A stretch of 64,000 nt of DNA from the IMG/VR virus record IMGVR_UViG_2548876947_000004; one strand, 5' to 3'. This DNA comes from a virus (taxonomy: Duplodnaviria; Heunggongvirae; Uroviricota; Caudoviricetes). The notes below the pieces were generated by a model that made no database searches, was not told the origin of the DNA, and saw only the letters and a program-made list of their open reading frames with translations. Positions 2,778 to 29,623 of this stretch are shown one piece after another (within the stretch, counting starts at the first letter, position 1; every line of letters starts with the position of its first letter). Both the position numbers and the translations under genes were made by a program.

Positions 2778-4207
2778 TCCTCCTCATACGAAATATTAAA
2801 GGTGGAGTTTTCTGTATCCAGATAAACGAAATCGTAAAAGCCGTTGGACTCATTCCACTCGACAAATTCCAGATAAAAGTCGCGGAAATAACCCAGCGTT
2901 TCGATAAACGCCCAAACGTCTTTTTTCTTAATCAGGATGTACTTCCCGACGCGGTTCGGATCAAAGAAAGTTGAGTCGCGCCCAAATTTTGTTTCCAGCG
3001 CCGACTTCAGCTCATCGGTCACATTCTCAATGGTCAGGCTTGCCGATATCCGTCCGGTGATGGTTATCTTAAATGGTAGTTTTCTGACCTCTTTATACGA
3101 GAATTTCTTGTTCAACTCATTCGGCACCTTCTTAAAGGCAGCCAGGATCATTTCTTCAAGCTCTGACTGGCTTTTATTTGGATGCCACCCTGAAATAAAT
3201 ATCTTATTGATATTCCGAACATTATAAGCACCATCTAATTTCTCTTGCCGGCCTTCGCCCCATGCCTTTACCCAGGACAGTCCCGGGATGTTACGCACCA
3301 GAAAATACGTATAGTCCCCGCCCCATACGACCTGATCATCATAGGCAAGGTAATATTGTGCACGGTTACGTGTGATCTCCGTTGTTTCGGCATCGGTACC
3401 TGCGGTTATAGGTGTCGTTGTCTTAACTGAAATCATATTAGCTAAATTAGCCGCAGAATCGACAGGCGTCAGGTTTTGGCCAGCAACCAGGGTTATATCG
3501 CCGTTGGTGCACCATACCTTAAGCGTAATGGTCGAGCCTTCTGGCGGTATTTGCCCAATTAGCCCATCACCGAATCGAACCCCCAACTGCTCGGATGGTT
3601 TATAAAACTCAACGTAGACCTGGCTTTTACTACCGGCTAACCGGAACATAGTGCTGGAAGACCACTGCGTGGTCTTACCATCGGTCGTCACGAATACTTC
3701 CAGCTTATAGCAGACAGCAGTGAGAGCCTTTGATAACACGACTTCCAGAAATTCTTTGGCTGCCGTAACGGTATATGTCACCTCCTGGATTTCCAACTGT
3801 GCCACTTCTACCGTACCGGTGCCGTCAACCAACCTGCATACATCCATAGTCATGTAAGGATACTGGTCGTCAGATATTAAAGGCATGTTTTTGGGGATTA
3901 CCGCTGGGGCATCTTCACTTGTGGCGGTGATCTCAATCATCCCCGATGACGGTGTTGGCTTGGTACCAACGTAACTATTCGTTTCTGCCGCTGCCAGGAT
4001 AGAAGAACGCCGCGTCGCGGTCGATATAAAGCCTTCAGCCAGCGCCGCATCGGCATACTGAAAGCACCTGTAGACAATCTGGGTAATAAACAATGTCAGC
4101 ATCGAGACAAATTGAGAGCCGACAAACTTCGACCAGAATGAATCTTTCTCGACAAGCTCTTCAAACTCTGCACGAATACTGTCTTTAGTAGGTGTTGTTT
4201 TACTCAT
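2774..4207 (-). CDS. Baseplate structural protein (477 aa)
   Basis: Long ORF, 4-nt overlaps with both neighbours; position between small baseplate protein and fibre genes. Confidence 0.4.
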   Translation of the reverse strand: MSKTTPTKDSIRAEFEELVEKDSFWSKFVGSQFVSMLTLFITQIVYRCFQYADAALAEGFISTATRRSSILAAAETNSYVGTKPTPSSGMIEITATSEDAPAVIPKNMPLISDDQYPYMTMDVCRLVDGTGTVEVAQLEIQEVTYTVTAAKEFLEVVLSKALTAVCYKLEVFVTTDGKTTQWSSSTMFRLAGSKSQVYVEFYKPSEQLGVRFGDGLIGQIPPEGSTITLKVWCTNGDITLVAGQNLTPVDSAANLANMISVKTTTPITAGTDAETTEITRNRAQYYLAYDDQVVWGGDYTYFLVRNIPGLSWVKAWGEGRQEKLDGAYNVRNINKIFISGWHPNKSQSELEEMILAAFKKVPNELNKKFSYKEVRKLPFKITITGRISASLTIENVTDELKSALETKFGRDSTFFDPNRVGKYILIKKKDVWAFIETLGYFRDFYLEFVEWNESNGFYDFVYLDTENSTFNISYEEE

Positions 4208-4563
4208 AGCACCACGTCCTGTGTGATAGTTATATCCCTGATACGAATGGATATTTTCAACTTATCAAAAGCATCTCCCTCGGCTACTGACAAGCCAGAA
4301 ATCGGTATGTCGGGTAAATCTACCGTCAGTTTTTGCAAAAGCATTGCTTCAACCGCAATTTGAACATGCGACAAGTTGGTCGGTTCGTGTTTAAACTGCG
4401 GTAAAACATTGCCCCATGACGGATCTCCGTATACCTCACCCTGATAAGTGTTTAGCCACTCATATAAACGAGCGCCCCAGGCCTCCTCCTGGGACTCATA
4501 CGTTTTTACGCCGGATAACTCCAGCGTCAGCAAAGGATCAATTTCGTTATTGTTGGCCATCAA
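4204..4563 (-). CDS. Small baseplate protein (119 aa), possibly gp25/GPW-like
   Basis: Size and position immediately downstream of tape-measure gene; weak resemblance to baseplate wedge proteins. Confidence 0.35.
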   Translation of the reverse strand: MMANNNEIDPLLTLELSGVKTYESQEEAWGARLYEWLNTYQGEVYGDPSWGNVLPQFKHEPTNLSHVQIAVEAMLLQKLTVDLPDIPISGLSVAEGDAFDKLKISIRIRDITITQDVVL

Positions 4564-7500
4564 TCAACTCTCGCGTAGTCATTCATCAACGGATCATCAA
4601 TTGACAGTGGTACCGTGCGCATAACGCCCGGCTGAGGCGTGCTGACCTTTACGACAGTTCCCTGGCCTTTCGCCGAGTCTTTAGTGTGCACTTCAATCCT
4701 GGCAAGCAATGAGGTCATCTGCGCAAACAGCCGCTTCGTTTCACCATCAAGTGAAACGGTATTATCAGCCAACTGCATTGTCGGCTTGGCACCGGAGCCG
4801 CCAAGGTCACTAATAACCTGTCCGTCTATCTGCATACGACCGGTTGGTTGCTGCAAATCGTTGGCGGCAGTCGTCACCTGGAACGTGGAGGCTGGTTGAG
4901 GAGAATTATTTGAGCGCATTCCCCGGGCATTAATGAGTTTGTCATACAGTCCATCAATCCCCATTTGTGCGCCGAGCTGGTCAAAGTAACTTGAGTTGCT
5001 GGCCACCGGACGCGCCTCTTCAACTGGCATCGGAGTATCAACATACACATTGCCAGCTGCTGTTGCGGTCCCATTTCCTCGTGCACGTTCTTCGAGGGTT
5101 CCCTGGACGACTTCTCGACGCATCCCCCGACCATTCATGAATTTGTTGACCAGATCGTTAACGCCAACAGCATTACCGATTTTGTCTACCAGACCGCCCT
5201 TCTCAAACGGGCTATCACCAGGGGTAAACGCCAGGCCAGTAGACTGATCGATAACGGCGTTATCAGGCAGTGGTCCCCTCACTCCATATTGCGCCCCCCC
5301 CTGTGCTCCTGCCCCTGGTGTATAGATTTCACCACCTAAATAGCGAGCACGATGAGTATTGACCTTGATCGCGTACTCACGGTTTTCTTTCGATAAGTCA
5401 CCTGTGCCTTTTTTCCACCTATTAATAGTGCCAAACCCAGCGTTATATGCAGTGATGGCCTCGTTTAAGTCTCCATTGGCTTGCTTCAGATACTTGCTCA
5501 TGAGAAGAGCCGCAGCTTCTGCCGATTTCACAGGATCAAATGCATCCGGTTCCGATATCCCTGTCTCTTTACGAGCAATACTCGTGAACTGGAACATCCC
5601 GAGTGCGCCACCACTTAACTTTCCATCTGGTGATCTTGTAAGCGGAGACTTTGCGTTAGGATCCCCTCCTGATTCAGTTGCAGCAATCGCGTAAAGAGTG
5701 CCTTCAGGAAGACCATATTTATTCTCTAGTTCAGCAAAATACGGAGCTAACTTATCGAGATTTGCCTTACCTTCAGCGCCAAGGCTTCCGACTTTTACAT
5801 CTAAGTTGCCATTATTGTAGGTATCAGCAGCTTTCTGAATGTCATTCCCAGTGCCGGTGGTATTACGCGACGATGATGACGAGCTATTTTGTCCAATAGC
5901 TGAATCAATTTTCCGCACCGCGCTATTGCCCGTTTCTACGGCATTTGCATTGATAATCTGATTGGCAGTTTCTTTAACTGTTTTATTGCTATCTTTCGCC
6001 GTGTCCAGTGCCGCATTTATCACGCGGGTAGCAATATTAGTCTGTTTAGCATCGGATTCAGTTTTAGAATCAGATGTCTCCTGGTGGCTATTAACCGGAG
6101 CTTTTAACTCTGGAGTGATTTCTTTTGCATTAGCCTCGCCGATCGGATTGGGTATTTTTGATACAATCATTGCCGCAGGGGTATTTTTAACGGCATCAAC
6201 CGCTGCATCTAATGCTTTACCGGGTAAATTTTTAACCCCATCCCAAATATTACCAGCCGCCTCTTTAATGTGTTTCCCTGGGTTCTTAATGAAGTCAATT
6301 GCACTATCAATTGCATCACTGAAAACCTGTTTCAGGTTATCGACAGTAAAGAAGTCTTTGATGGCATCCAGCTTTTCAAGCAACTTATTAGATGTATCGC
6401 TAAACCATGCTGAAACAGCATCACCAATCTTTGCTGTGTAATCATCGAACTTGGTAGAAATGGTGTCGCCAAGGTTAGAAATATATGTTTCTAAGTTGGT
6501 AACCCCGCTATCAATGGCCTGGGCAATACTTTCCGTCGAAAATGATTGCAACATATTGCCGATATCCTCAAATCCAAGTGATTTGAGAACATCACCAATA
6601 GCACTGCTAATACCAGATACCAGTCCCCCCAAATCAAGAACATTGGCTAACGTATAAGCGGCTTTTTGCTGGAATGATGGATCTTGTCCTGATTTAAGCC
6701 CAAACGCCCGACGTTGCGCTTCTGTATCATTCCAACCGGTTACCGCATCATAAATACCTCCAGCCACTGTGCCGACCAGGGGAATTGCGCGTAACGCCCC
6801 TTTACCAACTGCCTTTAATCCAAGTTTACCTGCTGCCCGGGCAGCCAAATCTCCGCCTTCATGGGCGAGAGTCTTCTTGCCCCCACCGCGTAGCATTCCT
6901 ACGAGTCTCTTTGCCCCCAGAGCGCCAAAAGCGAGTGCTCCAGCTTTTTTCAGCATGCCACGCCCCATTAACAACGACGCGACGCCACCGGCCCCCTTCC
7001 CTAACAGGCTAAATAGTTTAGACAGCAAGCCGCCCTTCTTTTTCCCGGTGTTTTTGGCTATCTGATCAAGGGCGCTGAGAATCTTGTCATTGCCCTCTTT
7101 AATTTCGCTGGTCTGCTCCTGAAGATCCTGAACCGTCCGTTTTTGGGTGTTAACCTGAACGACATCGGCACTATTTTGCGATTTACGCCTAAAAAAACCT
7201 TTTCTACGGCTGTTATCGTCATTGCCACGAATCACATCGGCAATAGACTTTCTGGCACCATTAAGCGATCCACCAACTTCTTTTGATATCCCGCCAAGCT
7301 CCTTCCCTGCTGCCCACAATGGACCAGCAACGGCATAACCTAACGCATCGACGGCACGAGTCTCTGAAGGGTTACCTATGCCTTCAGCTACTTTTGACAG
7401 TTTTTTTAATAAACCTGATTCAGCATTTAGACGCTCATCATCCTCTTTGCGCCTGGCCTTTTCTGCTCGTTCAGCACGGGCATCTTCCGCTGCGGCCTTA

Positions 7501-7982
7501 CTCCCTGACTTTCCAATAAAACGACCACGCGCATCGCGTTGGTTTTGGCTTTTTTGCGCACCGCCTTTTTGACCGAACATTTCGCGAGCGTGTTCGGCTG
7601 CTTCGGTCCGTTGCACCTTTACATCTTCTGTTATAGCCTTCTTGCGTCGTTTTTTACCCTTTCGCGTAGTTGATTTGGCCTGCGGTTCCTGTAGAGCAAC
7701 ATCCTCCTGAACTACACGAGAAACGTCCCCTAAATTAAGCCGTTTCATTGCGTCAACAATAGGGTCTACGGATGGCGCTTTGGCCACAAAGTCAGGCCGG
7801 GAATTTTCGATTATGCGATTTAATGCCGACACGCTGCGAGAGACAGGATCAACAGTTGCAACGCGTCCCCCTTTCAAATCTTCAACAGCTTCCCGGATAC
7901 CTGCAAGCTCTTCCAGCTCTTTTGCGCTGGCGGTTTCAACTATCCTTATAACATCGTCAATGTTGGCGTTTTTTCTTTCCAT
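4560..7982 (-). CDS. sit: Tape-measure-like injection protein with soluble lytic transglycosylase domain (1140 aa)
   Basis: Long ORF with Gly/Lys-rich coiled segments and an SLT-type motif region (...AIAATESGGDPNAK...GALGMFQFTSIARKETG...AITAYNAGFG...); size and context match P1 Sit as I recall it. Confidence 0.85.
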   Translation of the reverse strand: MERKNANIDDVIRIVETASAKELEELAGIREAVEDLKGGRVATVDPVSRSVSALNRIIENSRPDFVAKAPSVDPIVDAMKRLNLGDVSRVVQEDVALQEPQAKSTTRKGKKRRKKAITEDVKVQRTEAAEHAREMFGQKGGAQKSQNQRDARGRFIGKSGSKAAAEDARAERAEKARRKEDDERLNAESGLLKKLSKVAEGIGNPSETRAVDALGYAVAGPLWAAGKELGGISKEVGGSLNGARKSIADVIRGNDDNSRRKGFFRRKSQNSADVVQVNTQKRTVQDLQEQTSEIKEGNDKILSALDQIAKNTGKKKGGLLSKLFSLLGKGAGGVASLLMGRGMLKKAGALAFGALGAKRLVGMLRGGGKKTLAHEGGDLAARAAGKLGLKAVGKGALRAIPLVGTVAGGIYDAVTGWNDTEAQRRAFGLKSGQDPSFQQKAAYTLANVLDLGGLVSGISSAIGDVLKSLGFEDIGNMLQSFSTESIAQAIDSGVTNLETYISNLGDTISTKFDDYTAKIGDAVSAWFSDTSNKLLEKLDAIKDFFTVDNLKQVFSDAIDSAIDFIKNPGKHIKEAAGNIWDGVKNLPGKALDAAVDAVKNTPAAMIVSKIPNPIGEANAKEITPELKAPVNSHQETSDSKTESDAKQTNIATRVINAALDTAKDSNKTVKETANQIINANAVETGNSAVRKIDSAIGQNSSSSSSRNTTGTGNDIQKAADTYNNGNLDVKVGSLGAEGKANLDKLAPYFAELENKYGLPEGTLYAIAATESGGDPNAKSPLTRSPDGKLSGGALGMFQFTSIARKETGISEPDAFDPVKSAEAAALLMSKYLKQANGDLNEAITAYNAGFGTINRWKKGTGDLSKENREYAIKVNTHRARYLGGEIYTPGAGAQGGAQYGVRGPLPDNAVIDQSTGLAFTPGDSPFEKGGLVDKIGNAVGVNDLVNKFMNGRGMRREVVQGTLEERARGNGTATAAGNVYVDTPMPVEEARPVASNSSYFDQLGAQMGIDGLYDKLINARGMRSNNSPQPASTFQVTTAANDLQQPTGRMQIDGQVISDLGGSGAKPTMQLADNTVSLDGETKRLFAQMTSLLARIEVHTKDSAKGQGTVVKVSTPQPGVMRTVPLSIDDPLMNDYARVD

Positions 7983-8959: not shown

Positions 8960-9571
8960 TTAAAGCGAAAAACTAAAGCCCAGAAGGGAAGCTAAAGAAC
9001 TTGAGGATTGGTTAAACGTGCTGTGCAATGCGAAGGTCATTGGGAATGACTTAAATTCCGTAACCTGATCCCGCGCATAGGTGACATCGCCGGTAGTGAC
9101 CGGGAATACCGTCATCTCATTTTCCAGTTTGGTTAAACCGGAGGACAGCAACCGATAAATACGCACATTGAGCAAATATTTAGACGGTATATTCCCGGTA
9201 CCGTCCGGATTGATCACCCGACTTTTTGCCGTCTTAAACCAGTCCAAAACGAGGCCATCAACGGTATCCCTGACCATCATTGTTATCTGCCCAGGCGAAC
9301 GCTCAGTTGGCTGAAGGATATTCCCTCCGCCGATTTTAATCGTTTCATATTCGATGCTGTAATCGTGGTAGGTAATGTCTTTAGCAAAGAAGTCTGCCCC
9401 CTCCAGACCATCAACTTCGACAGAGAACTGCCATCCTTGCGCGAACAGCATTTTGTTCATGATGATTGACGTCAGCTTACCAACTTCCCGCTCACCAACG
9501 CCGGAGCCAAATAATGTCGTCGTTAATGCCGAAGATACATAAGACTTTACTGAAGCAACATTAAGCCCCAT
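8960..9571 (-). CDS. Hypothetical structural protein (203 aa)
   Basis: ORF, co-oriented, compact spacing. Confidence 0.4.
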   Translation of the reverse strand: MGLNVASVKSYVSSALTTTLFGSGVGEREVGKLTSIIMNKMLFAQGWQFSVEVDGLEGADFFAKDITYHDYSIEYETIKIGGGNILQPTERSPGQITMMVRDTVDGLVLDWFKTAKSRVINPDGTGNIPSKYLLNVRIYRLLSSGLTKLENEMTVFPVTTGDVTYARDQVTEFKSFPMTFALHSTFNQSSSSLASLLGFSFSL

Positions 9572-9581
9572 ATCAGCTCCC

Positions 9582-10172
<591 letters not shown>

Positions 10173-10302
10173 TTAACCGATTCTACGAGTTGTCATTTGT
10201 TACCGGTCAGTCTACACATTTCAGATACTACGTTAAAACAACTCAAGTGCTTCAAGTAGCACATCGTCATCAACATCCAGCCCCAAGGTACGGAGATAAA
10301 AT

Positions 10303-11487
10303 TCAAGCCTTAAGAGGCTTTGTGTATGTTCGTGTAATCCATCCAGTAATAAACTCGTCCCCTGATTTAACCTGCACGAAAAGCCATTGGCGATCTTTTT
10401 TATCTAAAATAGCAACAATTGTGTTTTTGCCAATGCATTCAATCACTTCACTGTTTAAAGAAGGACTGACATGTAATCTTACGTTATCACCAGTTATAAA
10501 CCTAAAACCATTGAGATCTTCCCACTTAATTTCTGTGTTTTCTTTAATTAATTTTTGTTTTGATATTGGTGTATCCTCATATAGGGATACAGAATATGAT
10601 TCTGTCTTGTGTATTTGCGATAAGATTTGTTCTTTTGCATAATCAGCAATGGCACCAAGCACCACTTCTGTTAAAAACCACATAATAATAAACTGAAGCG
10701 GGTGAGGGAGCGCCTTAAATGAGTCAATAAACGTCGAACTGGATTTATTTAATCCTTTGTTTTGAACATCACTTTCGTTGTGAGATGTTTCAATAGCACC
10801 TTCAACATAATCCTGAGCAATTGTTGATAGACCTTGCTCCATTATTTGATGAAATGAAGCATTTTGTTCTTGAATATGTTTATTTAATAATTCTTTTATT
10901 TCATTGTTTGAATCTATCTTGTGAGTTACATTTTGCCGCAGGTACTTTAGTATCTCCTGCACGTTATTTAAACCAGCTTGCTTATTAAGCATATCGGACT
11001 GGTTTCGTAACGACATAGAAACTCTTACCTGCCTCCTTAGCATTTTGTATATATTTGCATCATGAGGGGGGTAAGCCTTGTTCAGTTTCTGTAAAATTTC
11101 AATATGGTTGCGATACTCATTGCCTACTTCTGCCAAAATCGACCTACTCGAAAACTGTTTTCGAATGTAATCACGAATTAAGGCCGGTGTATTCAACCTT
11201 GCAATTTGCTCTTGAGCATAGCGTCCTATTCCTAACTGTTTTTGCAATATTTCTACATGCTCTTTATACGATGGAATCTTGCCTACGTTTTTTTGCAGTT
11301 TCGCTAACTGTTTAGCCAAATTATTAGAAGCATATTCTGATTTTAATAAATCACTTACCGATTTGTATTCTGGTGTTTTTATTTTATTTAAATAATCACG
11401 CAAAATAATATTTGCATCTTTATTATAAAGCTCGCTTACTGAGCCAAGAGCAAGTTTTTTAATGTCCTTCACTTTATTCACCGTCAT
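10303..11487 (-). CDS. Lys/Asn-rich protein with one hydrophobic segment and C-terminal SH3-like domain (394 aa); cassette gene 3
   Basis: ORF in markedly AT-rich DNA (a hand-counted 60-nt sample is ~32% GC); hydrophobic stretch LQFIIMWFLTEVVLGAIA; C-terminal ...GFRFITGDNVRLHVSPS...WLFVQVKSGDEFITGWITRTY resembles bacterial SH3 domains. Start overlaps upstream gene by 14 nt. Confidence 0.5.
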   Translation of the reverse strand: MTVNKVKDIKKLALGSVSELYNKDANIILRDYLNKIKTPEYKSVSDLLKSEYASNNLAKQLAKLQKNVGKIPSYKEHVEILQKQLGIGRYAQEQIARLNTPALIRDYIRKQFSSRSILAEVGNEYRNHIEILQKLNKAYPPHDANIYKMLRRQVRVSMSLRNQSDMLNKQAGLNNVQEILKYLRQNVTHKIDSNNEIKELLNKHIQEQNASFHQIMEQGLSTIAQDYVEGAIETSHNESDVQNKGLNKSSSTFIDSFKALPHPLQFIIMWFLTEVVLGAIADYAKEQILSQIHKTESYSVSLYEDTPISKQKLIKENTEIKWEDLNGFRFITGDNVRLHVSPSLNSEVIECIGKNTIVAILDKKDRQWLFVQVKSGDEFITGWITRTYTKPLKA

Positions 11488-11980
11488 CTTGCTTTAAGCA
11501 CCCATCATTTTTAGCTTCCTTGTAAATACTTGAAATGCCATCAAGAGAGAATGATGTAATTCGACGCGCTCCGATGTATACATCCATGTTTTTTTCTTTT
11601 GTGTCTGATGCTGACTTCCAAAAAGAATACCATTCCCGACGATTAGGAGCAGTGTTTTGCGTGCCAATATTAAAGCCATCCTGACCAACAATTAAGGTAA
11701 TTACATTAGCTTTACGAGAAATTGTGTCGCGTGTAGAAAAATCAGCATTCTCTTTCCCTCCGCTTACATACAAATGTCTTCCAGCGATATGATCTTCGGA
11801 ACCTTCCCTTGCTCCAGCATCACAAGAAAAGTTAATTGTATAACCATCGTCATTGGTTGCAGAGATTTCTCTCCACCCTTGCTCACCTCCTACCGTCCAA
11901 ACGGTAGAACCTGCCATTGCTGATAATGGCAGAAAAGAGGACATTAATAAAAAGCTATACAATGACTTATACAATTTCAT
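11474..11980 (-). CDS. Secreted protein with Sec-type signal peptide (168 aa); cassette gene 2
   Basis: N-terminus MKLYKSLYSFLLMSSFLPLSAMA|GSTV is a classical signal peptide; AT-rich codon usage. Confidence 0.5.
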   Translation of the reverse strand: MKLYKSLYSFLLMSSFLPLSAMAGSTVWTVGGEQGWREISATNDDGYTINFSCDAGAREGSEDHIAGRHLYVSGGKENADFSTRDTISRKANVITLIVGQDGFNIGTQNTAPNRREWYSFWKSASDTKEKNMDVYIGARRITSFSLDGISSIYKEAKNDGCLKQDDGE

Positions 11981-12068
11981 ATTTTTATCCTTTTGGTTTC
12001 AGATATTATAGGCATAGTCCATATTGTTAGGTCCACTATGCCCAGAGAATTTAATATTATTCATTAAA

Positions 12069-12560
12069 TTATGGAGCTACACCCGGCCCCCTGGCTCGTT
12101 CTTCAAGCGTACCCTGCACGCTTTGATGGCGCATTCCCGGGGCATTTCTGATTGAGTCAATGCCATTTCTTCCAACATCTTCTTTATTCACGGCATTGCT
12201 CGCCACCAGCACACCCCAGCTAGGGATAGCAAAATCAGGAGCGGTTTCGCATGCCTTTACCATATAATCAAAAGTGCTTCGATTGATCTCGTTCGCGTCC
12301 GGATTTAACAGGCGAGAATATTGATATTTAGCATTTTCGTTGGTTGCGACTTTATACAGTTCTTGCTGCACCATCGCTTCAGAAAGTTTAAGGCGTTTCA
12401 TGTCTGAAAGTAACTTCTTGCGCATGGATTCGTCTTGGCTGACAGCAAAGCCGTAAACGTGCCCAAGGTATTTCGTGTAGTCGGTACAAATATCCTTTAC
12501 GCTTGATGCTGCATTAACAGTCCCAGCCATAAATAATAACGGTAGTAATAGTTTTCTCAT
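12069..12560 (-). CDS. Secreted protein with signal peptide (163 aa from the Met with an SD); cassette gene 1
   Basis: Start chosen at internal Met preceded by AGGTGAGG; MRKLLLPLLFMAGTVNA|ASS signal peptide. C-terminal 22 aa (GMRHQSVQGTLEERARGPG) resemble an internal motif of Sit. Confidence 0.5.
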   Translation of the reverse strand: MRKLLLPLLFMAGTVNAASSVKDICTDYTKYLGHVYGFAVSQDESMRKKLLSDMKRLKLSEAMVQQELYKVATNENAKYQYSRLLNPDANEINRSTFDYMVKACETAPDFAIPSWGVLVASNAVNKEDVGRNGIDSIRNAPGMRHQSVQGTLEERARGPGVAP

Positions 12561-12646
12561 TATAACCTCACCTGCCTTATAACTCATTTAGGGTACATAT
12601 TTTCGCCTTTAAAAAAAAGAGGTTATTAGATCCAACTGTGTATTTA

Positions 12647-12663
12647 TTAAACAAATAATGCTC
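12647..12663 (+). promoter_or_regulatory. C1 repressor operator (Op51-like) upstream of c4-icd-ant
   Basis: AATGCTCTAATAAATTT, 16/17 match to the P1 C1 operator consensus ATTGCTCTAATAAATTT. Confidence 0.7.
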
Positions 12664-12857
12664 TAATAAATTTGTCTTTTTAAGTCACGAATGCTATCTT
12701 TTCGCATCATATTGACCTTTTAATCGTTCAGGCTTATAGTTCCGCCGTCGTAGCAAATTCTGCGACCGGGTTTAGCAGCCTGAATACTTACGCGGACAAC
12801 CGCAGATTTCCGATATTGCGGTATTTTTGTGTCCGTAAACCACGTTACGCCCGAATT

Positions 12858-12940
12858 ATGGTGGGGCGTGATGGGGAGGCTTCGGCCTGCTGGTTTCGTA
12901 AGTGCCAGTCTGCTAACCCCGTCACGTCCTGCCACCTGTT
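12858..12940 (+). ncRNA. c4: c4-like antisense RNA (immI regulator), copy 1
   Basis: Between operator and icd: 10-bp closing stem (cgtgatgggg / ccccgtcacg, one G-U) around two hairpins (aggc-ttcg-gcct; ctgg-tttcgtaagtg-ccag). Loop tttcgtaagt is complementary to acttacgagg covering the icd SD at 12967-12976. Boundaries approximate. Confidence 0.45.
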
Positions 12941-12985
12941 TAGCAGCGGGTCGCAGGTTGTTTATCAACTTACGAGGCCGTAACT

Positions 12986-13207
12986 ATGGTTAATGCCAAT
13001 CCTTGCGCACGCCAAGAATTCATCTGGCGTTTCTATTCCTGTAAAAAACACCACTATCACTTCGTTATCGCAGCAACAGAAGACGAAGCACGCTCTCAAT
13101 TGCCTGATGGCCCCTGCATTTTTACTGCCCGTTTTTCAACTAACTCGCGCAATTCACTTAGTTACTGGAGCCTCCCCTTCTCTGCCGACGTTCAGGGGGG
13201 TTTATGA
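12986..13207 (+). CDS. icd: Icd-like small protein (73 aa)
   Basis: 73-aa ORF directly upstream of and overlapping (ATGA) the antirepressor gene; a second divergent copy is at 61200..61421. Confidence 0.6.
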   Translation: MVNANPCARQEFIWRFYSCKKHHYHFVIAATEDEARSQLPDGPCIFTARFSTNSRNSLSYWSLPFSADVQGGL

Positions 13208-14238
13208 AAACACCTCTCGTCACCCGTAATGAAATAGCCGAAGCGATCGCCTTGCATACTGCCTGTATGCCGACACGGGAGATCCCCGGCGCAATTGCTA
13301 ACTATTTCATGATAACCAGACGTTTTTATACCCGAACAGATAAGGCTGTGATCAACAGGCTACTGATAGCCGAGATCAGGGATTATTTGATTGAACAAGG
13401 ACGTCTACGTTACGCAACAGTGGCAGCAGAAATGAGAAAGGAGGCACATAGAATGACCGGTAATAATTTAAATGTTGAAAAACCAGCACCTGTTGCTTCA
13501 GCTACGCCAGCACCAGCCCTGAATGTCATCCCCAACACCGGAGACACAATCGACAGCCAAACATTGTTGAAGATGGTCAATGAGGCACGGAAATTATGTA
13601 GCGAAAAACCAGTTCGCAACAATGATTTCATTGCCAGAGTTAAGGATGAGCTTGAAGGAGAAACCTACGAAATTTTCGTAGGTCAAAAAAACGGCGCAGA
13701 AATAGATATTATAACCATGACCTACAAACAAGCCCTGCGAGTTGCCGCGCGCGAGTCAAAAGCGGTCCGCCGTTCGCTGATCGACAAACTGGAAGAATTA
13801 CAGCAGGCAAACTCCCCTACCCCATCGATCCCCAAGACATTACCAGAAGCCCTACGCCTGGCTGCCGAGTTAGCAGAACAGAAAATGCAGTTGGAACAAC
13901 AGCTGGTGGCCGCAGCCCCTAAAGTCGATTTTGCCGACCGGGTATCAGTGGCCAATGGAATCCTGATCGGGAACTTTGCAAAGGTCGTTGGACTTAAGCA
14001 AAACGCCCTTTTCTCATGGTTGCGCCAGAACGGCATTCTCATGGCTTTTGGTGCGCGCAAAAACGTACCGCGCCAACAGTACATCAACGCCGGGTATTTC
14101 ACGGTGAAAGAAGTTGTGCTGGATGATGAAAATGGCTACCAGATACGGCTGACGCCCCAATTAACGGGTAAAGGCCAGCAGTGGTTAACTCGCAAGCTAC
14201 TTGATGCTGGTTTGTTAAAACCAGTAGCAATAGGTTAA
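13204..14238 (+). CDS. ant: Antirepressor Ant (344 aa)
   Basis: C-terminal ~140 aa (...LPEALRLAAELAEQK...PKVDFADRVSVA...GKGQQWLTRKLLDAGLL) is the conserved phage antirepressor C-terminal domain; immI context. Confidence 0.7.
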   Translation: MKTPLVTRNEIAEAIALHTACMPTREIPGAIANYFMITRRFYTRTDKAVINRLLIAEIRDYLIEQGRLRYATVAAEMRKEAHRMTGNNLNVEKPAPVASATPAPALNVIPNTGDTIDSQTLLKMVNEARKLCSEKPVRNNDFIARVKDELEGETYEIFVGQKNGAEIDIITMTYKQALRVAARESKAVRRSLIDKLEELQQANSPTPSIPKTLPEALRLAAELAEQKMQLEQQLVAAAPKVDFADRVSVANGILIGNFAKVVGLKQNALFSWLRQNGILMAFGARKNVPRQQYINAGYFTVKEVVLDDENGYQIRLTPQLTGKGQQWLTRKLLDAGLLKPVAIG

Positions 14239-28725: not shown

Positions 28726-29623
28726 GCACTGGAAAAACATTACTATTTATAAACTTTCTCGTGAGGCGGATCTGACCGACTTAGAAGATAAAAAGAAAAT
28801 GATCCTTTTCACGCCATGCGGTAGTCAGGATATGGCCAAGTTCGGTTTTGTATCGCCATTTGGTGATAATTCCGAAGTTATCGCTATGCATGGAAATGGT
28901 TTTATCCTTGTTGAAGCAAAGCGCGAAACAAAAATTCTTCCCCCGCCGGTTATCCAGCGAGCTATTCAAGAAAAAATTGAAAAACTTGAGCAAGAACAAG
29001 CGCGTAAACTGAAGAAAACAGAGAAGGACTCCCTGAAAGACGAAGTTCTGCATTCTCTTCTGCCACGGGCTTTTTCAAAGTTTTCTGTTATCCAGGCGAT
29101 CTACGACGGTTCAACTAAACGTATCTATATCAATGCCAGCGCGCGGCAGGCAGAGGATATGCTCGCGCTTATGCGTAAGTCTCTGGGTTCTCTTCCTGTT
29201 GTTCCCCTGAGTGTTGAAAATCCCATTGAATTAACGCTGACCGACTGGGTACGTGATGGTAGTGCTCCACAGGGATTTCAAATGGGGGATGCGGCAGAAC
29301 TTAAGGCAGTGCTTGAGGATGGCGGTATTGCCCGAGTGAAAAAGCAGGATTTGGGAAGCGATGAAATTTCCACACACCTGGAAGCTGGCAAGCTCGTCAC
29401 TAAGTTGGCACTCGACTGGCAGAACCGCATTAAATTTACACTGGACCATAACTTCAGCCTTACCAGCGTCAAATTTGCGGATGAATTGCTTGAGCAGAAC
29501 TCTGATATTGATAGTGAAGATGTAGCGCAGCGACTGGACGCAGATTTCTTCCTGTTGACCAGTGAAATTTCGTGCCTGGTTGATGCTCTGGTAAATGCCC
29601 TTGGTGGAGAGGCTAAGCAGTGA
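28718..29623 (+). CDS. hrdC: RdgC-like recombination-associated protein (301 aa)
   Basis: N-terminus [19 protein letters not shown]...[17 protein letters not shown] matches the RdgC family signature; start at internal ATG 28718 rather than the ORF-track start. Confidence 0.8.

What the first reader, a model, noticed from the sequence alone, without database searches (positions are those of the whole stretch)
10303..12587. AT-rich three-gene cassette of secreted and membrane proteins at the position where P1 carries sim
Three co-oriented genes between the tail block and the immI operator are conspicuously AT-rich relative to the rest of the window (a hand-counted 60-nt sample is about 32% GC). 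Two products have classical Sec signal peptides (MRKLLLPLLFMAGTVNA|A; MKLYKSLYSFLLMSSFLPLSAMA|G) and the third is a Lys/Asn-rich protein with one hydrophobic segment and an SH3-like C-terminal domain. In P1 this position holds the sim superinfection-exclusion locus, whose product is a processed periplasmic protein. Composition and gene content suggest a horizontally acquired envelope-acting module, possibly a different exclusion or defence system occupying the sim slot. None of the three proteins matched a family I could name.
Basis: partly seen in the sequence, partly recalled or inferred. Interest (0 to 1): 0.6.

Follow-up and report, generated by a model that had tools for sequence, protein, structure and literature searches.

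The report
Envelope-protein cargo in P1 sim hotspot
In a P1-like phage, the slot that holds the sim exclusion genes in P1 contains a leftover resident gene plus an inserted AT-rich pair of genes for a periplasmic protein and a membrane-anchored SH3 protein; this is a recurrent, uncharacterised variant of a known variable region and probably acts at the cell envelope, perhaps against incoming phages.

Summary
The three minus-strand genes are real and sit between pmgC/LPsit and the C1 operator/C4 RNA of a P1-like genome, where P1 has simC-simB-simA.

They are not one cassette:
- **ORF3 (12069-12587)** has ordinary composition (45% GC). It is the resident SimA-family gene: P1 SimA equals its first 50 residues, and phage Ro157c2YLVW has a full-length 215-aa version. 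Its C-terminus carries a 25-40-residue motif also found just after the transglycosylase domain of the phage's own Sit tape-measure protein.
- **The insert (10210-12080)** is the only AT-rich, foreign part, at 36% GC, the lowest window of that size in the 64 kb. It encodes ORF2, a secreted YfjT/YkfB-family (PF27224) protein, and ORF1, which probably has a cytoplasmic, hypervariable, repeat-rich N-terminal region, one membrane helix and a nearly invariant periplasmic SH3 domain.

About 70 of ~342 P1-like replicons in complete E. coli genomes carry the SH3 gene. Relatives also sit in cargo positions of P2-like and lambdoid prophages. No known defence family matches and no function has been published.

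An envelope-level exclusion or defence role is plausible but untested. This is a new variant of a known kind, of moderate interest.

The parts
10210..12080 (-). AT-rich insert: the only part not shared with P1, P7 or Ro157c2YLVW. It contains ORF2 and ORF1.
   Evidence: blastn breakpoints at about 10201-10209 (left) and 12081 (right, against Ro157c2YLVW). GC is 36.0%, the lowest 1871-bp window in the 64 kb, z = -4.4. GC3 is 0.30-0.31 against 0.42-0.53 in neighbouring genes.
10303..11487 (-). ORF1, 394 aa: a variable helical, repeat-like N-terminal region (1-258), one transmembrane helix, and a C-terminal SH3 domain. Its start overlaps the end of ORF2 by 14 nt.
   Evidence: SH3_3 E 1.1e-5; phrog_7086 E 2e-173
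10645..10701 (-). ORF1 transmembrane segment (residues 263-281, PLQFIIMWFLTEVVLGAIA)
   Evidence: Kyte-Doolittle 19-residue maximum of 1.78; it is the only segment above 1.6. It lies within a long predicted helix at 262-297 (low-confidence model).
10306..10524 (-). ORF1 SH3 domain (residues 322-394), nearly invariant across the family
   Evidence: Alignment A1: 30 invariant columns, all in residues 289-390. dN/dS is 0.05-0.15. Pfam SH3_3 matches residues 334-388.
10305..10320 (-). Weak terminator-like hairpin that starts inside the ORF1 stop codon and runs into the last ORF1 codons
   Evidence: 6-bp stem followed by GAATTTTATC. This is a consensus match only.
11474..11980 (-). ORF2, 168 aa: a secreted YfjT/YkfB-family (PF27224) protein with a beta-rich fold and two invariant cysteines (C53, C161)
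   Evidence: phrog_3429; pLDDT 82; Pfam name YfjT
12069..12587 (-). ORF3, a SimA-family exported protein. It probably starts at the ATG at 12560, which follows a GGTGAGG Shine-Dalgarno. Relative to the 215-aa full-length form its 3' end has been replaced.
   Evidence: 97% identity to Ro157 gp35 residues 1-161; P1 SimA 92% over 50 aa
12075..12197 (-). Sit-like motif at the C-terminus of ORF3 (residues 131-171; core GMRHQSVQGTLEERARGPG)
   Evidence: BLASTP against the window's Sit: 51% over 41 aa, E 8e-8. It is the only cross-hit among 159 window ORFs. phrog_2533 hit, and phrog_2533 is the Sit family. hhalign E 9e-5 over 25 columns. The motif is kept in SimA-family members down to 41% identity.
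5064..5174 (-). Matching segment in Sit (residues 937-973 of the 1140-aa tape-measure/transglycosylase protein encoded at 4560-7982), just after the SLT domain (748-867)
   Evidence: The segment is conserved between the window's Sit and JK004 Sit, which are only ~45% identical overall.
12657..12673 (+). C1 operator (the Oc4 position of P1), about 70-85 bp upstream of the ORF3 start. It marks the right boundary of the slot.
   Evidence: (1 mismatch to the consensus; 9 sites in the window against 0.04 expected) and the P1 annotation
10180..10198 (-). Position homologous to the P1 late promoter LPsit, just downstream of the insert. It marks the left boundary of the slot.
   Evidence: P1 annotation mapped through the 98% identical alignment

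Best explanation
The region is a composite allele of the known hypervariable sim slot of P1-like phage-plasmids. It has two parts.

**(a) ORF3** is the resident SimA-family gene. It encodes an exported protein whose conserved C-terminal motif copies a short segment of the phage's own Sit injection/tape-measure protein.

**(b) A 1.87-kb AT-rich insert** has replaced the 3' end of ORF3 and whatever followed it. The insert brings a translationally coupled pair. ORF2 is a periplasmic YfjT/YkfB-family protein with a probable disulfide. ORF1 is a bitopic inner-membrane protein. Its N-terminal repeat region is probably cytoplasmic and hypervariable, and its invariant SH3 domain is probably periplasmic and likely binds peptidoglycan or another invariant envelope ligand.

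**Most likely function (inferred, not shown):** prophage-expressed cargo that acts at the periplasm or inner membrane to interfere with entry of superinfecting phages. ORF1/ORF2 would act as an envelope-tethered blocker or sensor, and ORF3 as a possible competitor for a Sit interaction.

**What is shown:** the anatomy, homologies, boundaries, selection pattern and distribution.

**What is inferred:** topology, SH3 ligand, expression in lysogens and any anti-phage activity.
For: **Composite origin**
- Breakpoints and composition.
- ORF3 matches P1 SimA and Ro157c2YLVW gp35.
- The SimA-family + YfjT-family pair without an SH3 gene occurs in Ro157c2YLVW and in the distant phage JK004. This suggests the pair is ancestral to the slot.

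**Pairing**
- In every P1-like locus whose upstream flank was recovered, a YfjT-family gene directly precedes the SH3 gene. ORF3 is optional.

**Selection**
- dN/dS is 0.05-0.15 for the SH3 part and 0.13-0.27 for ORF2.
- dN/dS is about 0.5 for the ORF1 N-terminal region, whose dS is 3-8 times that of the flanking genes. This points to imported divergent alleles under relaxed or diversifying constraint.
- ORF1 is 52-80% identical across loci where PmgC and Tub are 97-100% identical.

**Cargo behaviour**
- The SH3 gene is present in about 70 of ~342 P1-like replicons in complete E. coli genomes.
- Relatives sit beside ogr and gpD-like genes of a P2-like prophage and on the opposite strand between P and Q of a lambdoid prophage.
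- The sim genes of P1 are non-essential (PMC10695390).

**Envelope theme**
- Every slot variant compared encodes exported, lipoprotein or membrane proteins.

**Sit motif:**
Against: - There is no experimental evidence of any phenotype, and nothing on function in the literature searched.
- No match to any PADLOC defence model, NCBIfam model or solved structure.
- The ORF1 model is poor (pLDDT 40), so its topology and SH3 fold rest on sequence only.
- The SH3_3 score is 1 bit under Pfam's cut-off.
- dN/dS of about 0.5 is not proof of positive selection. It could be relaxed constraint on a low-complexity linker.
- The C1 operator abuts the predicted promoter region upstream of ORF3, so expression in lysogens is uncertain.
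- From my own knowledge, the P1 Sim phenotype maps to SimC, which is absent here, and is seen only from multicopy clones.
- The distant ORF1 relatives examined (L029, L032, L039) lack a detectable YfjT partner, so the two proteins need not work together.
Confidence: 0.5

Rival explanations
1. Lysogenic-conversion cargo that benefits the host envelope rather than blocking phages. Possible roles include envelope stress tolerance, serum or bile resistance, adhesion, or cell-wall remodelling. ORF1 would tether the inner membrane to peptidoglycan and ORF2 would be a periplasmic accessory.
For: - The YfjT/YkfB family is widespread in chromosomal CP4-57/CP4-6-type islands of Enterobacteriaceae, next to lipoprotein genes.
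- P7's slot lipoprotein weakly resembles TraT.
- There is no defence-model hit.
Against: - The slot holds a proven exclusion gene in P1.
- The hypervariable ORF1 domain and rapid allele turnover between near-identical backbones are more typical of conflict genes.
- The Sit-like motif in ORF3 points to a phage target.
Confidence: 0.22
2. The genes serve the phage's own cycle. They might modulate the Sit transglycosylase, protect the lytically infected cell from lysis-from-without, or tune lysis or assembly timing. This would be analogous to T4 Sp inhibiting the gp5 lysozyme, but for the phage's own benefit during lytic growth.
For: - The genes are co-oriented with, and immediately upstream of, the late tail operon (pmgC-tub-pmgB-sit).
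- The ORF3 motif lies in Sit next to the SLT domain, within the span matched by a 'transglycosylase' profile, phrog_13449.
- The C1 operator nearby suggests derepression on induction.
Against: - The slot content is freely replaceable among otherwise 97-100% identical phages.
- P1's slot genes are non-essential.
- ORF1 relatives occur in unrelated phage backbones at cargo sites and on the opposite strand.
Confidence: 0.15
3. Decaying or functionless hitch-hiking DNA. The slot would simply tolerate junk, and the ORFs are remnants.
For: - ORF3 is truncated relative to the 215-aa form, and P1 simA is a 52-aa stub.
- Truncated ORF1 and ORF2 variants exist.
Against: - There is strong purifying selection on the SH3 part and on ORF2 (dN/dS 0.05-0.27).
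- Intact ORFs are found in about 70 replicons.
- The start/stop overlap is conserved.
- Cysteines and the motif are conserved across 21-50% identical homologues.
Confidence: 0.08

Closest known systems
P1 sim locus (simC-simB-simA; SimC is a processed periplasmic superinfection-exclusion protein)
   Same: - Identical genomic slot between LPsit/pmgC and the C1 operator Oc4.
- Same orientation, and all products are exported.
- ORF3 shares its first 50 residues, its upstream region and its promoter region with simA.
   Different: - There is no homologue of SimC or SimB.
- SimA appears to be only the N-terminal stub of the ORF3-type protein.
- The exclusion phenotype, known for SimC from my own knowledge of Devlin 1982 and Maillou & Dreiseikelmann 1990, cannot be transferred.
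E. coli K-12 YfjT / YkfB (CP4-57 and CP4-6 cryptic prophage proteins; Pfam PF27224 'YfjT')
   Same: ORF2 belongs to this family. The evidence is a signal peptide, similar length, two invariant cysteines, and profile and pairwise matches.
   Different: - Only 21-26% identical to the chromosomal members.
- It is followed by an SH3 membrane-protein gene rather than preceded by a lipoprotein gene.
- The family has no known function.
Ro157c2YLVW gp35/gp34 and Cronobacter phage JK004 gene_14/gene_13
   Same: These are at the same slot, with a SimA-family gene followed by a YfjT-family gene.
   Different: - They have no SH3 gene.
- gp35 is full length (215 aa).
- Their YfjT alleles are only 27-36% identical to ORF2.
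Envelope-level exclusion proteins that target the injection machinery: T4 Sp (inhibits the gp5 lysozyme), HK97 gp15 and TP-J34 Ltp (act on the tape-measure protein), P22 SieA, SNIPE
   Same: - The logic is the same: prophage-encoded membrane or periplasmic proteins positioned where the tape-measure or lysozyme protein of an incoming phage acts.
- ORF3 carries a copy of a Sit segment next to its transglycosylase domain.
- Literature context: PMC10883804, PMC3952083, PMC13190303.
   Different: - No sequence or fold relationship was detected.
- No nuclease or other enzymatic domain is present.
- A decoy mechanism based on a copied tape-measure motif has not, to my knowledge, been described.

Membership tests
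P1 Sim superinfection-exclusion system | Homologue of SimC (the 264-aa processed periplasmic effector) | tested here: not met
   All-against-all BLASTP of the slot proteins at E<0.01 finds no SimC match. The DNA homology to P1 stops at 10201 and resumes only at 12421.
P1 Sim superinfection-exclusion system | Homologues of the accessory genes simB and simA | tested here: inconclusive
   simB is absent. SimA (52 aa) is 92% identical to ORF3 residues 1-50, so only simA is represented, as part of a longer gene.
P1 Sim superinfection-exclusion system | Location between pmgC/LPsit and the immI operator Oc4 | tested here: met
P1 Sim superinfection-exclusion system | Blocks P1 infection after adsorption | not testable with these tools
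   Needs plating and DNA-entry assays.
YfjT/YkfB family (Pfam PF27224) | Significant sequence or profile match over the full length | tested here: met
   - The 96%-identical cluster representative P0044 carries PF27224.
- Against K-12 YfjT: E 4e-6.
- Against Ro157 gp34: E 2e-26.
- The local Pfam copy lacks this model, so the name comes from the precomputed tags.
YfjT/YkfB family (Pfam PF27224) | Signal peptide and conserved cysteine pair | tested here: met
   A23, W28, G35, C53, W117, F120, F144 and C161 are invariant in 33 sequences. An AXA cleavage site is present.
Bacterial SH3 domain (Pfam SH3_3, PF08239) | Profile match at or above the gathering score | tested here: inconclusive
   The score is 26.0 bits against a cut-off of 27, E 1.1e-5, covering profile positions 1-52 of 54. 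Most homologues carry precomputed PF08239 tags, some marked weak. The AF2 model shows five strands but at low confidence.
Known anti-phage defence systems (PADLOC-DB 2.0) | Match to any component model | tested here: not met
   Only noise-level hits for ORF1 (E 0.005-0.007) and none for ORF2 or ORF3.
SimA-domain family (phrog_3933; Ro157 gp35 type) | Full-length match including the C-terminal ~50 residues | tested here: not met
   ORF3 matches profile positions 1-162 of 213 and gp35 residues 1-161 of 215. The 3' end has been replaced at the insert junction at 12081. ORF3 is a truncated member that keeps the Sit-like motif.

The most novel reading that the evidence does not exclude
The slot holds two previously unrecognised envelope-level anti-phage devices.

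1. SimA-family proteins would be periplasmic decoys. They display a conserved peptide copied from the transglycosylase-proximal part of the Sit tape-measure protein, and so could jam an interaction that incoming P1-type phages need for genome entry.
2. The YfjT + TM-SH3 pair would be a peptidoglycan-tethered inner-membrane sentinel. Its fast-evolving cytoplasmic repeat domain would engage injected phage components. This module would be shared by P1-like, P2-like and lambdoid prophages.
Probability: 0.15. Interest if true: 0.7.

Novelty: new variant of a known kind. Interest (0 to 1): 0.4.

Why it matters
P1-like phage-plasmids are common in clinical and livestock Enterobacteriaceae, and they exchange cargo at a few hotspots. 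Knowing what the sim-slot alleles do would explain which P1-like elements can coexist or exclude each other and other phages. That matters for P1 transduction, the spread of resistance-carrying phage-plasmids, and phage therapy host range.

It would also give a first function to the YfjT/YkfB 'y-gene' family of E. coli K-12. The finding that P1 simA is a stub of a longer gene, and that this gene family copies a Sit motif, gives a concrete and cheap hypothesis to test about how exclusion at this locus might work.

Tried and rejected
- **Homology to SimC/SimB or to the P7 slot genes** (DUF5384, TraT-like lipoprotein): none found.
- **NCBIfam, PADLOC and Pfam scans** gave only noise beyond SH3_3. 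A sub-threshold PTPlike_phytase hit for ORF3 (26.7 against 27 bits) lacks any catalytic motif, so I did not take it further.
- **ORF1 structure:** the AF2 model was too poor to search (pLDDT 40). A profile search against PDB sequences returned only designed helical bundles and Vipp1 at noise level. The SH3 segment alone had no PDB sequence relative.
- **Tandem repeats:** none in the DNA of the window's ORF1, although a relative has a 51-bp x 5.8 array.
- **Wider homology between the SimA family and Sit:** hhalign restricts it to 25 columns. Recent duplication is rejected because the motif DNA is only 62% identical, with many synonymous differences.
- **Species-representative genome scan:** only 2 loci.
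- **tblastn of ORF1 against 50,697 phage records:** nothing.
- **Literature:** searches for YfjT/YkfB function and for P1-like hotspot cargo found no functional data.
Full report
**1. What is in the sequence**

The window is a P1-like (Punavirus) genome. Positions 9500-10201 and 12421-13300 are 94-98% identical to P1, and the flanking genes are pmgB, tub, pmgC and icd/ant.

On the minus strand there are three ORFs:
- ORF1, 10303-11487, 394 aa.
- ORF2, 11474-11980, 168 aa.
- ORF3, 12069-12587, 172 aa.

They lie between the position of the P1 late promoter LPsit/pmgC and the C1 operator (12657-12673, one mismatch), followed by the C4 target sites and C4 RNA (Rfam RF03163 and RF01695, 12734-12939). 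P1 has simC, simB and simA in exactly this interval.

**2. Composition**

The GC dip is real but narrower than stated.
- ORF1 is 34.5% GC, ORF2 is 39.6% and ORF3 is 45.3%. The window mean is 47.6%.
- The segment 10210-12080 is 36.0% GC. It is the lowest of all 1871-bp windows in the 64 kb (minimum at 10211, z = -4.4).
- GC3 is 0.30-0.31 for ORF1 and ORF2, against 0.43 for ORF3 and 0.42-0.53 for pmgC, tub and sit.

**3. The three genes are not one cassette**

blastn breakpoints show a fixed left junction at about 10201-10209 for P1, P7 and Ro157c2YLVW. The right junctions are nested:
- P7 resumes at 12659.
- P1 resumes at 12421, inside ORF3.
- Ro157c2YLVW resumes at 12081, at the 3' end of ORF3.

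ORF3 is 97% identical to residues 1-161 of the 215-aa gp35 of Ro157c2YLVW and then diverges for its last few residues.

P1 SimA (52 aa) is 92% identical to the first 50 residues of ORF3. P1's simA therefore looks like the stub left when simB-simC replaced the rest of this gene.

A good Shine-Dalgarno (GGTGAGG) precedes the second ATG at 12560, so the protein probably starts MRKLLLPLLFMAGTVNA|A.

The exhaustive HMMER search finds only 12 representative clusters of this family among 1.8 billion proteins.

The distant Cronobacter phage JK004 has a SimA-family gene (79% identity) followed by a YfjT-family gene upstream of its pmgC/tub/sit block, as does Ro157c2YLVW. I infer that 'SimA-family + YfjT-family' is the older content of the slot. 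P1 (simB-simC), P7 (DUF5384 protein + lipoprotein) and this window would then be later replacements.

**4. The insert: ORF2**

- ORF2 has a signal-peptide-like N-terminus (AMA|G).
- It matches phrog_3429. It is 29% identical to Ro157 gp34 (E 2e-26) and 26% identical to E. coli K-12 YfjT (E 4e-6).
- A profile search finds 230 clusters, almost all tagged PF27224, which the context tool names 'YfjT'. They come from chromosomal CP4-type islands and from ~90-kb P1-like contigs.
- Two cysteines (C53, C161) and several aromatic residues are invariant. This fits a periplasmic disulfide.
- No paper assigns a function to YfjT or YkfB.

**5. The insert: ORF1**

The ORF1 start codon overlaps the end of ORF2 by 14 nt.

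- It has one hydrophobic segment (263-281, KD 1.78), with slightly more positive charge before it than after it.
- It has a C-terminal SH3_3 match (26.0 bits against a cut-off of 27, E 1.1e-5).
- The AlphaFold model is poor (pLDDT 40). I use it only for secondary structure: helices through 1-258, a long helix at 262-297, and five strands at 328-385.
- There is no signal peptide and the N-terminal region is 260 residues long. I therefore infer an N-in/C-out topology with the SH3 domain in the periplasm. This is inference, not shown.

The family has 43 clusters in 5.8 billion proteins and a striking conservation pattern. All 30 invariant columns lie in residues 289-390. The N-terminal ~250 residues are hypervariable and built from degenerate 'h-x-x-K-Q-x-x-x-h-Q-K-x-x-G' units. 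One relative has a perfect 51-bp x 5.8 tandem array, whereas the window has none at DNA level.

| Loci with ORF1 homologues | Protein identity to the window |
|---|---|
| ORF1 (P1-like loci) | 52-80% |
| ORF2, main allele class | 92-96% |
| ORF3, where present | 97-99% |
| PmgC / Tub | 97-100% |

| Segment (Nei-Gojobori) | dN/dS | dS |
|---|---|---|
| ORF1 N-terminal region | ~0.5 | 0.29-0.74 |
| ORF1 SH3 part | 0.05-0.15 | 0.12-0.32 |
| ORF2 | 0.13-0.27 | 0.08-0.27 |
| PmgC / Tub | ≤0.2 | 0.02-0.11 |

So divergent ORF1 alleles are being swapped between nearly identical backbones. The N-terminal region is under relaxed or diversifying constraint, while the SH3 end is strongly conserved.

**6. 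Distribution and context**

- The full region recurs at 91-95% identity in about 25 P1-like plasmids. There it is annotated 'SH3 domain-containing protein', 'YfjT/YkfB family phage-associated protein' and 'simA domain protein'.
- The conserved SH3-coding end is found in 70 of ~342 P1-like replicons in complete E. coli genomes.
- No record among 50,697 deposited phage genomes has an ORF1 homologue.
- In every P1-like locus whose upstream flank was recovered, a YfjT-family gene directly precedes the SH3 gene, as one of two allele classes that are about 29% identical to each other.
- ORF3 is missing from several of these loci. There a 116-aa polytopic membrane protein takes its place.
- More distant ORF1 relatives lack a detectable YfjT partner. 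They sit beside an Ogr-like zinc-finger gene and gpD/gpU/tape-measure genes of a P2-like prophage, and on the opposite strand between replication gene P and antiterminator Q of a lambdoid prophage. These are typical cargo (moron) positions. That P2's ogr-proximal region carries exclusion genes is from my own knowledge.

**7. An unexpected link to Sit**

- ORF3 residues 131-171 match residues 937-973 of the window's own Sit protein (1140 aa, 4560-7982). That is just after its SLT transglycosylase domain at 748-867. Identity is 51%, E 8e-8, with the core GMRxxxVQGTLEERARGxG.
- The same stretch of ORF3 hit phrog_2533 independently, and phrog_2533 is the Sit family.
- It is the only cross-hit between any slot protein and any of 159 window ORFs.
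- The segment is a conserved island in Sit proteins that are only ~45% identical overall. Ro157 gp35 matches JK004 Sit over 38 residues at 55% identity (E 8e-10).
- The motif is kept in SimA-family members down to 41% identity, although JK004's own copy keeps only its first half.
- Profile-profile comparison limits the relationship to about 25 columns (E 9e-5).
- The DNA is only 62% identical, with many synonymous differences. It is therefore an old, protein-level conserved short motif, not a recent duplication.
- The window's ORF3 is truncated immediately after this motif.

**8. Interpretation**

What is shown:
- A composite allele of a known low-GC hypervariable region of P1-like phage-plasmids (variable region 4, simC-simB-simA, in PMC9603915).
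- All products are envelope-directed.
- Two of the three genes are under purifying selection.

What is inferred: the function. The best-supported reading is prophage cargo acting at the periplasm or inner membrane, most plausibly against superinfecting phages. The reasons are:
- the slot's precedent (Sim);
- the cargo behaviour across three phage backbones;
- the allele turnover and the variable domain in ORF1;
- the Sit-derived motif in ORF3.

A possible mechanism for ORF3 is competition for whatever the Sit segment contacts during entry. A possible mechanism for ORF1/ORF2 is a peptidoglycan- or envelope-tethered inner-membrane protein with a periplasmic partner.

Points against, or still open:
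- There are no defence-model hits and no phenotype data.
- Expression is uncertain because the C1 operator lies next to the upstream promoter region.
- dN/dS of 0.5 is compatible with a merely unconstrained linker.
- The P1 sim genes are dispensable for lytic growth (PMC10695390). This fits an accessory role but does not say which one.

**9. Novelty and score**

The slot's variability and low GC content are published, and the gene families are catalogued though uncharacterised. So this is a new variant of a known kind, not a new kind of system.

To my knowledge three observations are new:
- P1 simA is a fragment of a longer gene.
- That gene family carries a Sit motif.
- The TM-SH3 protein has an invariant periplasmic end and a hypervariable N-terminal end, and is shared by P1-like, P2-like and lambdoid prophages.

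Interest is moderate (0.4). It would rise substantially if an exclusion phenotype or the decoy mechanism were demonstrated.

Noticed in passing
window 12429-12587; L001 (P1) 3485-3643: P1's annotated simA (52 aa) is just the first ~50 codons of the longer SimA-family gene (215 aa in Ro157c2YLVW, 189 aa in JK004). It therefore looks like a vestige left when simB-simC were inserted.
   Followed up: yes
window 5064-5174 (Sit residues 937-973); L034 (JK004 Sit residues ~926-963): A short segment after the SLT domain of Sit (FMNxRGMRxEVVQGTLxxRAxGxGT..GNV) stays conserved between Sit proteins that are only ~45% identical overall. Its role in Sit is unknown.
   Followed up: partly
L039 4160-5317; L032 1633-3210: ORF1-type TM-SH3 proteins with unrelated N-terminal regions occur in a lambdoid prophage (opposite strand, between P and Q, followed by an unannotated 380-aa gene) and in a P2-like prophage next to ogr/gpD-like genes. 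No YfjT partner was detected in either.
   Followed up: partly
L030 1-298: The N-terminal region of one ORF1 relative is a near-perfect 51-bp x 5.8 tandem repeat (17-aa units, KKYGIGSQLLKQSEDLQ). This suggests repeat expansion and contraction as a source of variation in this family.
   Followed up: partly
L007 (DXHF01000172.1): A 2.8-kb contig labelled as a 'Candidatus Paenibacillus intestinavium' MAG carries this P1-like region, with PmgC 98% identical to the window. This is almost certainly a mis-binned Enterobacteriaceae phage-plasmid fragment.
   Followed up: no
L035-L038 6077-6427: Another slot variant replaces the SimA-family gene with a 116-aa polytopic membrane protein of unknown family, upstream of YfjT + SH3.
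   Followed up: partly
window 28781-29053 (- strand ORF): There is a marginal BLASTP hit of K-12 YfjT to this window ORF (35% over 46 aa, E 0.003). It is probably chance.
   Followed up: no
window 12657, 14317, 28353, 32898, 32909, 42770, 48535, 60864, 63979: Nine C1-operator-like sites (2 or fewer mismatches to ATTGCTCTAATAAATTT) are spread over the window, against 0.04 expected by chance. This is consistent with the P1 immunity network.
   Followed up: no
window 10303-11487: The exact ORF1 allele of this window is rare. The best complete plasmid (NZ_CP009051.1) is 94.6% identical over the region. The 100% protein match (P0001) was seen only in Logan read-set assemblies.
   Followed up: no
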